64,000 nt of DNA from a plasmid. The stretch lies in the NCBI RefSeq assembly GCF_056746865.1, contig NZ_JBWKMP010000004.1. One strand, 5' to 3'. A program made the position numbers and the translations under genes. Shown piece after piece: positions 18,061 to 28,022 of this stretch; position 1 is the first letter of the stretch; the number at the start of each line of letters is the position of its first letter. The notes below the pieces were generated by a model, which worked only from the letters and a program-made list of their open reading frames with translations, ran no database searches and was not told the DNA's origin.

Positions 18061-18850
18061 CCATAACCCGACAGCGGCGATTGCCGGCGGCGAACAGCCG
18101 CACGCGCATATTATGTTTTCTGAACGGATGAATGACGGGATTGACCGTGACCCGCAGCAGTATTTCAAACGGGCAAACTCTAAAGTACCGGAGCGCGGCG
18201 GAGCTAAAAAGGTGCGTTTCGGGGAAACACCGACAGAGCGCAAAGAGCATCTTATCGCCCAGCGTGAACGCTGGGCTGACCTCCAGAATGCCTATCTTGA
18301 ACGCTATCAGCATGCTGACCGTGTCGATGCCCGCTCCCTGAAAGCGCAGGGCATCGGGCGTGAACCGGAGCGGCATCTGGGGGCGGGACAGGTTCAGCGC
18401 TTCGATACTGACCAGTTACAGGCCATTCTTGAGCGCAGGGAAGCGGAAAGACAGGTTCAGCAGTGCTGTGATGAACGTGACAGCGTGATTGACGTAACCA
18501 CCTCGCTGCGGGAAGCCATCAGTGAGCGGGACACTCTGATGCTAAAACAGACGCAGAAATCTGATCCCGAACAGGACGCCGTTTCCGGCAGGGTATTCGA
18601 TTTTGAAAAAGAGCCGGAGAAGCTGAATGCACTGGTCAGCGATGCCATGAAGGACATACAGGAAGAAATTGACCTTCAGTCCCTTGTTAACGATGCGATG
18701 GCGGAGTTTCAGGAGATACATCAGGAAATGGAACGGCAGAAAGAGCGGGCGAGACTGGCGGAAAAACAGCGTCAGCAGGAGAAAGAGCGGCAGCGCATTG
18801 CCGAACAGAAACGACAGAAGCCCGATAAAGGCTGGTCATTCTCACGATAA
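18061..18850 (+). pseudogene. MobA/MobL-family relaxase, C-terminal portion (5'-truncated by IS26 fragment)
   Basis: open frame runs from the IS26 junction with no start codon; RVDARSLKAQGIGREPERHLG motif resembles MobA/MobL relaxases; glutamate/arginine-rich coiled-coil tail. Confidence 0.55.
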
Positions 18851-18862
18851 GCAGGATTTGAT

Positions 18863-19447
18863 ATGAGCGACGAAATTAAACAGATTGCTGCCCTTATCGG
18901 GCATCATCAGGCGCTGGAAAAACGAGTGAGCACGCTGACTGAGGAGTTTCAGGCTGCCTCCGTGCAGTTACAGCGGCAGAGCGAAACACTGAGCAAGGTT
19001 ATCCGGGAGCTGGACAGTGCGTCCGGTAATATGACCGATACAGTCAGAAAGTCTGTCAGCTCCGCTATGAATCAGGTTACGCAGGCGTTAACACAAGCCG
19101 GCACTGAGCAGCAGAAGCCCGCCGTGAATGCCCTTAATCAGGTCGTGAAAGCAGCTAATGACTCCGTTAACGCCATGCGCCGTGAAATGTATCGCTATAC
19201 GTGGAAATCGGCGATTTATCTTGTGCTGACGATATTCTTCGTCCTGGCTTGCTGTGTGACGGCACTGACATGGTTTATGAATGACGGGTACAGCCGGATT
19301 GCTGAAATGCAGCGTATGGAAGCTGTCTGGCAGAAAAAAGCGCCGCTGGCTGATATCTCTACGTGTGACGGAAAGCCCTGCGTTAAGGTGGACACCCGCA
19401 CCACGTATGGGGATAAAGAGAATACCTGGATGATTATTAAGAAATAA
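18863..19447 (+). CDS. hypothetical membrane-anchored coiled-coil protein (possible mobilisation accessory protein)
   Basis: 194-aa ORF directly after the relaxase fragment; one predicted TM segment (AIYLVLTIFFVLACCVTALTWF). Confidence 0.45.
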   Translation: MSDEIKQIAALIGHHQALEKRVSTLTEEFQAASVQLQRQSETLSKVIRELDSASGNMTDTVRKSVSSAMNQVTQALTQAGTEQQKPAVNALNQVVKAANDSVNAMRREMYRYTWKSAIYLVLTIFFVLACCVTALTWFMNDGYSRIAEMQRMEAVWQKKAPLADISTCDGKPCVKVDTRTTYGDKENTWMIIKK

Positions 19448-19489
19448 AATAACGGAGCATTACGCTCCGCTATTGGGTGTTGTTGCGAC

Positions 19490-27040: not shown

Positions 27041-27325
27041 GTCATGGCCTTATGACTGTTAGAGATTGAAATGATTGTAAGGTATCGCGTCCAATGCTGG
27101 AACCTGACAGTAATGCTGCTGATACAATTGCGGAAAAATGCACCAAAACAGGTGGTATTTAACATAAGGGATCTTACGCGCACCACCGATCAGGTACTCA
27201 CGACGAAAACACGTCAAAACGCGCAAAACAGCCTGTTTTCTGCCCCCAAAATTGGCTGTTTTTGTGTTGCCGGTTTGTTATCAAAACGACGGATATGATT
27301 TCAGCCAGCAAACGGGCTGAAACCT

Positions 27326-27775
27326 CTATTTTTTCCAGAATTTCCATGATTTTTTCACCATCGGCTGCGTGACAGGTTCTGGTGTTGCCGGTAGCTTGGA
27401 CTCTATCAGTAACAGGGCTTGCTTGAGATCCTCGTTGCGCTTGTCTTTTTCAGCGAGTAGGAGTTCTTTTTCACGCAGCAATGCCTTTACGAGTTCTATT
27501 TCAGCTTTTAAAGCATAGTTTTCATGCAGCAAATTCTGGTCAGTTAACTGTACGGATTCTCCTGCCAAACTCTGCACAGTGCTGCCTGATTGTTCACTGC
27601 CAAGTTGCTGACCAGTAAATGATCCGAAAACACGCAGAAGCTCTGATGTATCTAGCTTTGAAGAACCACTGCTATCTGTGCACTTGGTCAGTTTTCCCTG
27701 CTTAATGTATGACTGCACTGTTGTGCGACTTTTTCCTGTCAGTCTTGCGGCTTCGCTGATTGATACCAGTGCCAT
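27326..27775 (-). CDS. hypothetical HTH DNA-binding protein with C-terminal coiled coil (149 aa)
   Basis: N-terminal SISEAARLTGKSRTTVQSYIKQGKL helix-turn-helix-like; function unknown. Confidence 0.45.
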   Translation of the reverse strand: MALVSISEAARLTGKSRTTVQSYIKQGKLTKCTDSSGSSKLDTSELLRVFGSFTGQQLGSEQSGSTVQSLAGESVQLTDQNLLHENYALKAEIELVKALLREKELLLAEKDKRNEDLKQALLLIESKLPATPEPVTQPMVKKSWKFWKK

Positions 27776-27782
27776 AGATACC

Positions 27783-28022
27783 TCAGAACCGTCCGTATTT
27801 AGCTAAAATTTTCTCTAGCGTGGCTCGTTGTTTTTGGGTCAGCCATGTAAATGAGTCGTTGAGATCGTGCTTGCTTTGCATATCGCTTAGAAATTTAGCC
27901 TCAAAGCTAGTGAGCTGGATTTTTGCGGTCAGTGCATCGTGTAGTGTCTTTTTAAGACCGTTATGCAATTGACTGTCTTGCGTGCTGTTTGTCACCGGAA
28001 TGGGCGTTCTTGTTGTTTTTTC
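27783..28022 (-). pseudogene. 3' end of an unidentified gene truncated by IS26
   Basis: frame runs into the IS26 IR at 28023 without a start codon; ends ...QKQRATLEKILAKYGRF. Confidence 0.35.

What the first reader, a model, noticed from the sequence alone, without database searches (positions are those of the whole stretch)
18061..28022. Roughly 10-kb captured segment with relaxase remnant, R-M system and cargo, bounded by IS26 on both sides
The segment starts with a relaxase gene lacking its 5' end (frame open right up to the IS26 fragment at 18060) and ends with another gene lacking its 5' end at the IS26 IR at 28023. Between them are a mobilisation-like accessory ORF, res/mod, the cargo operon and an HTH protein. 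This looks like a small mobilisable plasmid or island cointegrated by IS26 and trimmed at both ends, which would explain how a Type III R-M system and the unknown operon became part of a resistance island.
Basis: inference. Interest (0 to 1): 0.5.

Follow-up and report, generated by a model that had tools for sequence, protein, structure and literature searches.

The report
Dead pSC101-type plasmid trapped by IS26
The 10-kb segment is three quarters of a small pSC101-family plasmid carrying a Type III restriction-modification system, fused into a large resistance plasmid next to IS26, stripped of its replication and transfer functions, and interrupted by a later 2.9-kb insertion of unknown genes; the parent plasmid still circulates free, so the case is largely explained and of an ordinary kind.

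Summary
Window 18061-28022 begins with a relaxase gene that lacks its 5' end and abuts a 231-bp IS26 fragment. It ends with a gene that lacks its 5' end and abuts the IRL of a complete IS26.

Two 9,396-bp E. coli plasmids (NZ_CP021721.1, NZ_AP027803.1) match 7,101 bp of the segment with 0-2 SNPs. They encode the same Mod, Res, MobX and HTH proteins.

The parent belongs to the pSC101 family: Rep3 initiator, iterons, MobA/MobX/TraD and an R1162-type oriT. The window lacks 2,295 bp of it: the rep 5' end, the origin, traD, oriT and the first ~108 mobA codons. The remnant can therefore neither replicate nor be mobilised.

Three refinements:
- The truncated right-hand gene is rep.
- The left junction is not an IS26 end. 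It is a deletion across a 12-bp microhomology between the IS26 interior and mobA, and this IS26 fragment is inverted relative to the right-hand copy.
- The "cargo operon" is absent from the free parent. It is a 2,861-bp insertion bracketed by a MITESen1-like element and 263-bp diverged direct repeats, and it has been lost repeatedly.

Published work calls this segment "IncN"; that attribution is wrong. The kind of event is well known, so interest is modest.

The parts
17830..18060 (-). dIS26: the 231-bp IRR-proximal end of IS26 (3' end of tnp26), inverted relative to IS26 at 28023. Its interior, not an IR, abuts the plasmid remnant.
   Evidence: It is the exact reverse complement of 28612-28842 (I1). 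The same 231 bp and the same junction are present in every fetched locus that retains the first 40 bp of the segment, and contexts diverge exactly at the IRR.
18049..18060 (.). 12-bp microhomology TCAGTTTGCCAT shared by the IS26 interior and parent mobA: the crossover interval of the left-hand deletion.
   Evidence: Three-way comparison of the window, IS26 and parent L032. The window switches from IS26 to mobA within this stretch.
18062..18850 (+). dmobA: C-terminal ~263 codons of a 371-aa MOBQ relaxase. It keeps the HxH motif (QPHAHIMF) but lacks ~108 N-terminal residues.
   Evidence: Pfam MobA_MobL profile positions 113-217/224. NCBIfam MobQ and TraA_Ti partial hits. Identical to L032 MobA from about residue 105.
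18863..19447 (+). mobX, intact mobilisation accessory gene (194 aa).
   Evidence: Annotated WP_023281055.1 MobX in the window's relatives and in the free parent. 84% aa identity to pSC101 MobX.
19490..22126 (-). res, Type III restriction subunit (878 aa), intact.
   Evidence: PADLOC REase_III PDLC03651 E 1.3e-240, nearly full length. Pfam ResIII. Same accession WP_023281054.1 in the free parent.
22131..24179 (-). mod, Type III methyltransferase (682 aa), intact; low-GC central region.
   Evidence: PADLOC MTase_III PDLC03635 E 1.1e-251. Pfam N6_N4_Mtase + TypeIII_RM_meth. GC 32-39% at 22500-24000. WP_023281053.1 also in L033.
24105..24367 (.). DR1: mod 5' end (25 codons) plus 188 bp upstream; left copy of a 263-bp diverged direct repeat.
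   Evidence: the repeat finder D1/D2, 82% identity, spacing 2861; alignment A1.
24369..24442 (+). Solo 74-bp IRL-type end of a MITESen1-like TIME (Tn3-family IR GGG(G)TCCGTTTGGG...ACGGCAAG).
   Evidence: 95% complementary to 26891-26964 (I2). Aligns to MITESen1 positions 1-76.
24428..26678 (-). Five-gene insertion cargo: 67 aa (24428-24631), 135 aa (24674-25081), 180-aa UDG-superfamily-fold protein (25153-25695), 149-aa protein with an N-terminal hydrophobic, signal-peptide-like stretch (25679-26128), 179-aa predicted lipoprotein (26139-26678).
   Evidence: No Pfam, NCBIfam, PADLOC or PHROG hits. 180-aa protein: AF2 pLDDT 94.5, Foldseek hits to MUG/TDG/UdgX, E ~1e-5. Lipobox LAGC and the signal-like N-terminus were read from the translations. 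Absent from the free parent.
26711..26964 (-). Complete MITESen1-like TIME (254 bp; Tn3-derived miniature element).
   Evidence: 80.6% identity to ISFinder MITESen1 over its full length. Discrete element with 5-bp target duplications in 3 of 4 other plasmids. Relatives at 70-82% in many of the 2,902 PLSDB records matched by the 2,596-bp query.
26966..27228 (.). DR2: second, diverged copy of the mod upstream region plus a 25-codon mod start (27040->26966) cut off by the TIME.
27326..27775 (-). HTH gene (149 aa), the partner gene 8 bp downstream of rep in the parent family.
   Evidence: Pfam HTH_17. NCBIfam NF038291 'plasmid replication DNA-binding protein' E 2.7e-13, below cutoff. Same accession WP_023281052.1 and rep-HTH spacing in L032/L033.
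27783..28022 (-). drep: last 80 codons of a 325-aa Rep3-family initiator; both winged-helix domains are missing.
   Evidence: Identical to L032 1335-1574. Parent Rep has Rep3_N 6-152 and Rep3_C 170-224. The remnant has no Pfam hit.
28023..28842 (+). Complete IS26; its IRL abuts drep.
   Evidence: The same junction is present in 87 PLSDB records at >=99%.

Best explanation
Window 18049-28022 is the inactivated remnant of a ~9.4-kb pSC101-family mobilisable plasmid.

The parent's gene order is rep, HTH, mod, res, mobX, mobA, oriT, traD, iteron origin. Its native cargo is a Type III R-M system.

How it was captured (inferred):
- The plasmid fused to an IS26-bearing conjugative plasmid. The earliest recognisable host is IncN, next to resP.
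- An IS26 reaction inside rep left the precise drep|IRL junction at 28022/28023.
- A single illegitimate deletion then ran from position 231 of an inverted IS26 to codon ~105 of mobA, across a 12-bp microhomology.
- That deletion removed the rest of that IS26 and the 2,295 bp holding the rep 5' end, iterons, traD, oriT and the relaxase catalytic domain.

What remains: intact mod-res, mobX and HTH. The remnant has no replication function and no cis or trans transfer function of its own.

How it spreads (inferred): only as a passenger of IS26-rich resistance regions on IncN, IncN-F33 and F33 plasmids. The window holds it in the pECB11-type arrangement.

The five-gene 'cargo operon' is a separate 2,861-bp insertion in the mod upstream region. 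It is bracketed by a MITESen1-like TIME and a solo TIME end, and flanked by 263-bp diverged direct repeats. Recombination between those repeats deletes it recurrently.

Shown versus inferred. Shown: identity to the free parent, what is missing, the junction sequences and the insertion structure. Inferred: the order of events, the IS26 cointegration step, and any present-day function (R-M as defence or stabiliser).
For: Parent plasmid:
- L032 and L033 (9,396 bp, MOBQ) align to 18042-24367 and 27190-28022.
- There are only 2 SNPs (L032) or none (L033) at the two SNP sites checked.
- Protein accessions for HTH, Res and MobX are identical in both; Mod is listed in L033.

Family:
- pCF2206-5 is colinear at 87%.
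- The same backbone carries a Type I R-M system in L025/L026.
- pSC101 shares MobA 83%, MobX 84%, TraD 87% and Rep 69% aa identity, and the same nic core.

Missing functions:
- The parent's 1575-3857 has no match anywhere in the window.
- There is no TAAGTGCGCCCT within 1 mismatch in the window.
- At >=99% identity this 2.3 kb occurs only in the two free plasmids in PLSDB.

Junctions:
- 12-bp microhomology at the left junction.
- The dIS26 is inverted relative to the right-hand IS26.
- Both junctions are invariant across contexts.
- Dozens of PLSDB records match only the resP flank plus the first 231 bp of IS26, with an intact IS26 annotated there in the listed examples; these are possible precursors.

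Insertion:
- It is absent from the free parent, from L007 and from pZY-1.
- The single repeat copy in those is a DR1-left/DR2-right chimera, crossing in a 16-bp identical stretch.
- pZY-1 has the window's own flanks with 0-1 SNPs.
Against: - No intermediate (complete plasmid flanked by two IS26 with an 8-bp duplication) was found, so IS26 cointegration is inferred from one junction only.
- The two IS26 sequences are inverted, which a simple cointegrate does not produce. At least one extra IS26 copy or an inversion must be assumed.
- Whether the captured plasmid already carried the 2.86-kb insertion is unresolved. No free 12.3-kb form and no donor of the insertion were found in PLSDB.
- The IncN context being the first host rests on frequency and on the literature, not on a rooted phylogeny.
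Confidence: 0.88

Rival explanations
1. The segment is IncN plasmid backbone (or an 'IncN region'), as it is labelled in the F33:A-:B- plasmid literature, acquired together with the IncN replication region.
For: Wang et al. 2018 (PMC6052338) describe 'a 9,962-bp segment ... 10 putative ORFs ... 99% identity to a fragment of IncN plasmid pABWA45_3'. The 2023 mSystems paper (PMC10654068) calls it an IncN segment. In many loci it lies 235 bp from IncN resP-repA.
Against: A 231-bp IS26 fragment always separates it from resP. Its genes are pSC101-family rep/mob remnants. A free 9.4-kb plasmid matches it at ~100%. Only 76 PLSDB records have a match covering at least 80% of it. It was a passenger of one IncN lineage, not IncN backbone.
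Confidence: 0.03
2. The plasmid was captured by a route other than IS26 cointegration, and IS26 arrived at rep only later. Candidate routes are homologous recombination or a Tn3-family/TIME-mediated cointegrate. IS26 could then have reached rep by insertion-cointegration from a neighbouring copy or by adjacent deletion.
For: The left junction is not an IS26-end junction. The IS26 sequences are inverted. A TIME-bounded structure, which moves through cointegrates, sits inside the segment. No target-site duplication can be checked.
Against: The drep|IRL junction is a precise IS26 end, the signature of an IS26 reaction (established IS26 biology; own knowledge). The free parent has no TIME and no IS26. 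All contexts are IS26-rich regions.
Confidence: 0.08
3. The free 9,396-bp plasmids are deletion derivatives of a 12.26-kb parent that already carried the five-gene insertion. On this view the unknown operon did come in with the plasmid.
For: Copies without the insertion occur in two different captured contexts (L007 in the IncN context; pZY-1 in the window's own context). This shows recurrent deletion across the 16-bp identical stretch, and the same deletion could have produced the free 9.4-kb form.
Against: Both sampled free plasmids lack the insertion. No free form with it exists in PLSDB: parent-type left junctions are found only in the 9,396-bp records. The repeat copy nearest HTH-rep is diverged from the mod-proximal copy, which points to foreign origin.
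Confidence: 0.35

Closest known systems
pSC101 (NC_002056.1) and the pSC101 / 'ColE10-type' family of small mobilisable plasmids, including mcr-4 plasmids such as pMCR_R3445 and pIB2020_ColE_MCR
   Same: Same backbone modules and order: Rep3 initiator with iterons and a DnaA box, divergent traD and mobA-mobX, and an oriT with an inverted repeat plus the TAAGTGCGCCCT core. Parent versus pSC101: MobA 83%, MobX 84%, TraD 87%, Rep 69% aa identity. The cargo slot between mobX and the rep side holds different genes in different members: tetC, mcr-4, Type I or Type III R-M.
   Different: The window copy is not a plasmid any more. It lacks 2,295 bp (rep 5' end, origin, traD, oriT, mobA 5' end) and is embedded in an F-type plasmid. 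Its cargo is a Type III R-M system plus a TIME-bracketed insertion.
E. coli AR_0128 plasmid tig00000856 (NZ_CP021721.1) and p2017.10.01CC_3 (NZ_AP027803.1), 9,396 bp
   Same: Sequence-identical parent type: 7,101 bp shared with 0-2 SNPs, and the same Res, MobX and HTH protein accessions (Mod in L033).
   Different: These are free, complete and circular, with no IS26 and no 2,861-bp insertion.
IS26-mediated cointegrates and IS26-bounded captured plasmid segments in multiresistance regions (Harmer and Hall model; own knowledge)
   Same: A precise IS26 IRL junction inside a plasmid gene. The segment then moves between replicons within IS26-rich regions, and other copies are further truncated by IS26 (L004, L009, L021).
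   Different: The flanking IS26 sequences are inverted, one is a 231-bp stump joined through its interior by microhomology, and no 8-bp duplication survives.
The '9,962-bp segment / IncN segment' of F33:A-:B- and IncN1-F33 plasmids (PMC6052338, PMC10654068)
   Same: This is the same DNA, with the same length and the same plasmids, including pECB11.
   Different: Those papers treat it as IncN-derived with '10 putative ORFs'. Neither main text contains the words restriction, relaxase or mobilization in my term searches. Here it is assigned to a pSC101-family R-M plasmid with a free parent.
TIME-COMP structures bounded by MITESen1 (PMC13367494)
   Same: Tn3-type IRs; a 254-bp element 80.6% identical to MITESen1; passenger genes lie between inversely oriented TIME ends.
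   Different: Only one complete TIME plus a 74-bp end. There are no 5-bp flanking repeats and no resistance gene. It is instead flanked by 263-bp diverged repeats, which suggests entry by recombination of a circle.

Membership tests
pSC101-family mobilisable plasmid (as a remnant) | Rep3-family initiator gene | tested here: inconclusive
   Only the last 80 codons are present, with no Pfam hit. They are identical to the 3' end of the parent's 325-aa Rep, which has Rep3_N + Rep3_C.
pSC101-family mobilisable plasmid (as a remnant) | Iteron/DnaA-box origin next to rep | tested here: not met
   Present in the parent (three ~21-bp repeats CCTAATTTTTGCTTAACCTTT and TGTGGATAA, read from the sequence printed). 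No match anywhere in the window.
pSC101-family mobilisable plasmid (as a remnant) | MOBQ relaxase with N-terminal catalytic domain | tested here: not met
   The window keeps profile positions 113-217/224 only; ~108 residues are missing. The parent MobA is complete at 371 aa.
pSC101-family mobilisable plasmid (as a remnant) | oriT with inverted repeat plus R1162/pSC101-type nic core between mobA and traD | tested here: not met
   The core is present in the parent, pSC101 and four relatives. There are 0 matches within 1 mismatch in the whole window.
pSC101-family mobilisable plasmid (as a remnant) | Synteny rep-HTH-[cargo]-mobX-mobA | tested here: met
   Colinear with L032, L033, L027 and L029.
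IS26 pseudo-compound transposon / simple IS26 cointegrate product | Two complete IS26 in direct orientation whose IR ends abut the captured DNA | tested here: not met
   Left: a 231-bp fragment, inverted, joined through its interior. Right: a complete copy with its IRL abutting.
IS26 pseudo-compound transposon / simple IS26 cointegrate product | 8-bp target duplication | not testable with these tools
   The reciprocal junction was deleted. Flanks are GTTTTTTC | IS26 | GTAAAGGC.
Type III restriction-modification system | Adjacent co-oriented mod (N6/N4 MTase with Type III N-terminal domain) and res (ResIII helicase-nuclease), both full length | tested here: met
   Pfam and PADLOC near-full-length hits. 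Res is 93-95% identical to those of free R-M plasmids.
Type III restriction-modification system | Methylation and restriction activity; recognition sequence | not testable with these tools
   Needs methylome data or phage restriction assays.
IncN backbone | Contiguity with IncN core genes without mobile-element boundaries | tested here: not met
   dIS26 always lies between resP and the segment. A free non-IncN parent exists.
TIME-COMP (MITESen1-bounded) | Two TIME copies with Tn3-type IRs bounding passenger DNA | tested here: inconclusive
   One complete copy (26711-26964) and one 74-bp end (24369-24442).
TIME-COMP (MITESen1-bounded) | 5-bp direct repeats flanking the outermost IRs | tested here: not met
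   The flanks are (T)AAAA(G) and TTAAA. Other MITESen1 copies do show 5-bp repeats.

The most novel reading that the evidence does not exclude
The remnant may persist in thousands of isolates because it works as a small defence/stability island for the resistance plasmid. It would combine an intact Type III R-M system with an adjacent TIME-borne cassette whose conserved core (lipoprotein, 149-aa protein with a signal-like N-terminus, UDG-superfamily-fold protein) could be an uncharacterised anti-phage DNA-glycosylase module. [quoted passage not shown] Nothing here tests activity. The cassette is dispensable, since it is repeatedly deleted, and res or mod are IS-disrupted in some copies.
Probability: 0.15. 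Interest if true: 0.55.

Novelty: new member of a known kind. Interest (0 to 1): 0.3.

Why it matters
- **Attribution.** Two comparative studies label this widely disseminated 10-kb block of F33/IncN resistance plasmids as "IncN"; that label should be corrected. Its Rep|IS26 junction or its free parent is in 61 of 5,426 complete E. coli genomes, and its exact proteins are in thousands of assemblies.
- **Typing.** MOB-suite reports a MOBQ relaxase for pECB11-like plasmids. That call can only come from this non-functional remnant, so predictions of mobilisation from it would be wrong.
- **Origin of the R-M system.** The case shows how a Type III R-M system entered a resistance island: as the native cargo of a small pSC101-family plasmid.
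- **Junction types.** IS26-associated boundaries can be microhomology deletions rather than IS26-end events.
- **Overlooked element.** A MITESen1-like element carrying non-resistance genes sits inside the segment.

None of this changes concepts. It is a worked example of known processes.

Tried and rejected
- **Whole-segment BLAST.** It was dominated by identical copies and did not reveal the parent.
- **Protein search with the relaxase remnant.** The best full-length MobA clusters were only 90% identical, which at first suggested no exact parent. The parent emerged only from 100-bp junction-spanning queries.
- **First local BLAST.** It failed because locus files are pooled in one FASTA; it was repeated successfully.
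- **Apparent shared 8 bp next to IS26 in pIB2020_ColE_MCR.** Only a few bases match; this was a BLAST extension, not a shared junction.
- **Donor of the 2,861-bp insertion.** I reconstructed the hypothetical contiguous 263-bp 'A-type' repeat and searched for it. No record holds it.
- **Cointegrate of two related R-M plasmids via the TIME.** Set aside, because the HTH-rep side is identical to the parent, not to a second lineage.
- **IS4321/IS5075 as evidence that the 74-bp IRs are Tn21-type targets.** Rejected. The insertion in pABWA45_3 and pHNZY118 is at 25939-25945, inside the 149-aa ORF, at a fortuitous ATTTTCCGTT site.
- **Family searches for the five inserted ORFs.** Pfam, NCBIfam, PADLOC and PHROGs searches of all five, and a PDB sequence search with the 180-aa protein, gave nothing. 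Only structure prediction placed the 180-aa protein.
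Full report
**1. Observation**

IS26 inverted repeats define complete copies at 4393-5212, 28023-28842, 31340-32159 and 34927-35746. A lone IR lies at 17830. The piece 17830-18060 is exactly the reverse complement of 28612-28842. It is therefore the 231-bp IRR-proximal end of IS26, inverted relative to the copy at 28023.

The left-hand gene is a relaxase remnant.
- The frame 18062-18850 is open up to the IS26 piece.
- It matches Pfam MobA_MobL only over profile positions 113-217 of 224.

The remaining genes are:
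- mobX, 18863-19447.
- A Type III res (19490-22126) and mod (22131-24179), with near-full-length PADLOC hits (E 1e-240 and 1e-251) and the expected Pfam domains.
- Five ORFs without any family hit, 24428-26678.
- An HTH gene, 27326-27775.
- An 80-codon frame, 28022->27783, open up to the IS26 IRL.

**2. Same DNA elsewhere, and what has been published**

The 9,962 bp recur at about 100% identity. In PLSDB, 76 records have one match covering at least 80% of it. The window is nearly identical to pECB11 (NZ_KY865321.1) at the same coordinates. One of the few differences is a private synonymous change at 21818.

Two papers describe the block:
- Wang et al. 2018 describe 'a 9,962-bp segment ... 10 putative ORFs' attributed to the IncN plasmid pABWA45_3. 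[quoted passage not shown]
- The 2023 IncF33 study repeats the IncN label (PMC10654068).

In my term searches, neither main text contains restriction, relaxase or mobilization.

**3. Junctions are fixed**

- In every fetched locus that retains the start of the segment, the same 231 bp of IS26 and the same junction are present. The neighbouring DNA changes exactly at the IRR.
- The right end is always the IS26 IRL.
- Junction-spanning 100-bp queries find the left junction at >=99% in 64 PLSDB records and the right junction at >=99% in 87.
- Among complete E. coli genomes, 61 of 5,426 carry the right junction or the parent sequence.
- Some copies are cut further by IS26 (res in L004 and L021; the relaxase remnant in L009 and L010) or interrupted by IS903B, IS3 or IS1.

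**4. The parent**

The same junction queries picked out two 9,396-bp E. coli plasmids that read through both junctions: NZ_CP021721.1 (L032) and NZ_AP027803.1 (L033).

Alignment to the window (L032 coordinates):

| Window | Parent L032 | Differences |
|---|---|---|
| 18049-23587 | 3858-9396 | 2 SNPs |
| 23588-24328 | 1-741 | none up to about 24324; the first differences (a 1-bp indel at 24325) begin at the end of the repeat crossover stretch |
| 27190-28022 | 742-1574 | none |

L033 agrees with the captured consensus at both SNP sites. HTH, Mod, Res and MobX carry the same protein accessions as in the window's relatives.

The parent's gene order is rep (325 aa, Rep3_N + Rep3_C), HTH, mod, res, mobX, mobA (371 aa), traD.

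What the window lacks is parent 1575-3869, 2,295 bp in all:
- 738 bp of rep.
- The origin region. Three ~21-bp iterons, an AT-rich stretch and a DnaA box were read from the sequence.
- traD.
- The traD-mobA intergenic region.
- About 108 codons of mobA.

Supporting searches:
- No part of this stretch occurs elsewhere in the window.
- At >=99% identity it occurs in PLSDB only in the two free plasmids.
- The intergenic region holds an inverted repeat followed by TAAGTGCGCCCT, the R1162/RSF1010-type nic core (assignment from my own knowledge).
- This core is conserved in four relatives and in pSC101.
- The core is absent from the whole window even with one mismatch.

**5. Family**

- Relatives with the same architecture include pCF2206-5 (9,380 bp, colinear at 87%), a Proteus 10-kb plasmid, and plasmids with a Type I R-M system in the same slot.
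- pSC101 itself shares MobA 83%, MobX 84%, TraD 87% and Rep 69% aa identity.
- The 'ColE10-type' mcr-4 plasmids belong to the same family.

The captured element is a pSC101-family plasmid whose native cargo was the Type III R-M system.

**6. How it was captured**

*Right junction.* It is a precise IS26 end inside rep. That is the signature of an IS26 reaction, and IS26 moves by forming cointegrates (established knowledge).

*Left junction.* It is different. The window switches from the IS26 interior to mobA within TCAGTTTGCCAT (18049-18060), which both sequences share. This is an illegitimate, microhomology-guided deletion, not transposition.

*Orientation.* The stump is inverted relative to the right-hand IS26, so a simple cointegrate with two direct copies cannot be the whole story.

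*Minimal model (inferred).*
1. Cointegration at rep by one IS26.
2. One deletion from an upstream, inverted IS26 into mobA.

*Possible precursor.* Dozens of PLSDB records match only the resP flank plus the first 231 bp of IS26. An intact IS26 is annotated there in the listed examples, at exactly the resP-adjacent site.

*Later changes of left neighbour.* These occur at the IRR boundary and fit recombination through the 231-bp stump or neighbouring IS26 copies. In the window the neighbour is a Tn3-family tnpA fragment.

**7. The 'cargo operon' is a separate insertion**

Relative to the parent, the window has 2,861 extra bp. Reading left to right, the structure is:

| Coordinates | Feature |
|---|---|
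| 24105-24367 | DR1: 188 bp upstream of mod plus its first 25 codons |
| 24369-24442 | 74-bp Tn3-type IR end |
| 24428-26678 | Five genes |
| 26711-26964 | 254-bp element |
| 26966-27228 | DR2: 82% identical to DR1, with its own 25-codon mod start |

The 254-bp element:
- It is 80.6% identical to ISFinder MITESen1. The reference sequence came from Table S2 of PMC13367494.
- The 74-bp arm equals its IRL end.
- In other plasmids the element is discrete, with 5-bp duplications in three of four cases.

Copies without the insertion:
- The parent, L007 and pZY-1 each carry a single repeat copy. It is DR1 on the left and DR2 on the right, crossing in a 16-bp identical stretch.
- These copies occur in two captured contexts, including the window's own context (pZY-1: 0-1 SNPs over about 18 kb). 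Deletion across the repeats has therefore been recurrent.

It remains open whether the plasmid already carried the insertion when it was captured. No free form with it and no donor were found.

**8. The inserted genes**

- The 180-aa protein has homologues across Enterobacterales and beyond, with invariant GESHY and HP motifs.
- Its structure was predicted with confidence (pLDDT 94.5).
- The model matches MUG/TDG, UdgX and family-4 UDG folds (E ~1e-5, TM 0.5-0.59).
- A three-gene run of the same sizes and order (183/149/180 aa, ending in the 85%-identical homologue P0122) is found on a Citrobacter plasmid.
- Function is untested. Antiviral glycosylases are a lead only.

**9. Verdict**

The truncated right-hand gene is rep, and the parent plasmid exists. 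The remnant has no oriT and no replication function. The left junction is a microhomology deletion. The unknown operon is a later, TIME-associated insertion. The phenomenon is a well-known kind. The new points are the correct origin of a block published as 'IncN' and its internal anatomy.

Noticed in passing
window 26711-26964 and 24369-24442: A complete 254-bp MITESen1-like TIME (80.6% identical to ISFinder MITESen1) and a solo 74-bp IRL-type end in inverse orientation bracket the five unknown genes. This is a TIME-COMP-like structure without 5-bp flanking repeats and without a resistance gene. MITESen1 relatives at 70-82% identity account for many of the 2,902 PLSDB records matched by the 2,596-bp query.
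   Followed up: partly
window 24105-24367 and 26966-27228: 263-bp direct repeats only 82% identical flank the insertion, and the second holds a 25-codon mod start. The free parent, L007 and pZY-1 each have a single chimeric copy crossing in the 16-bp stretch TCTTACGCGCACCACC. A 2,861-bp unit has therefore been gained or lost by recombination, and lost at least twice.
   Followed up: yes
window 25153-25695 (-): The 180-aa protein has no family annotation but a confidently predicted UDG-superfamily fold, closest to MUG/TDG/UdgX. Invariant GESHY and HP motifs are present across 30 homologues. A run of three ORFs of matching sizes and order (183/149/180 aa) recurs on a Citrobacter plasmid.
   Followed up: partly
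window 25939-25945; L030 (pABWA45_3) and L031 (pHNZY118): IS4321 and IS5075 are inserted at the same point inside the 149-aa ORF in other copies of the segment. The site (ATATTTTCCGTTCTC) resembles the core of the Tn21-family IR that these IS normally target.
   Followed up: partly
L023 (pIB2020_ColE_MCR) 3300-3600; NZ_CP040891.1 and NZ_CP122444.1: In the mcr-4.3 ColE10-type plasmid, a MITESen1-like core lies between two IS110-family transposase genes, with both element ends replaced. Some ColE10-type plasmids keep 56-179-residue C-terminal remnants of the same Type III res. This suggests they descend from R-M-carrying members of the family.
   Followed up: no
window 16064-17829: Left of the IS26 stump is a 63% GC fragment of a Tn3-family transposase gene (Pfam DDE_Tnp_Tn3, E 4e-160), with IS5075 at 14981-15985 further left. 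The published TnAO22/IS5075 arrangement fits.
   Followed up: partly
whole record typing: MOB-suite, as reported by PLSDB, lists 'MOBF, MOBQ' relaxases for pECB11. The MOBQ call must come from the truncated, non-functional mobA remnant.
   Followed up: partly
window 21818: The window carries A where pECB11 and all 24 other loci that could be read at this site carry G. The change is synonymous (TTT/TTC, Phe103 of Res). A further difference from pECB11 lies about 3.6 kb to the right of the segment, inside the IS26 at 31340-32159. The window is therefore a very close relative of pECB11 rather than that exact record.
   Followed up: yes
NZ_JBUBMM010000002.1: An 18,436-bp E. coli record holds the parent-type rep sequence twice. 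It may be a dimer or a fused form of the small plasmid.
   Followed up: no
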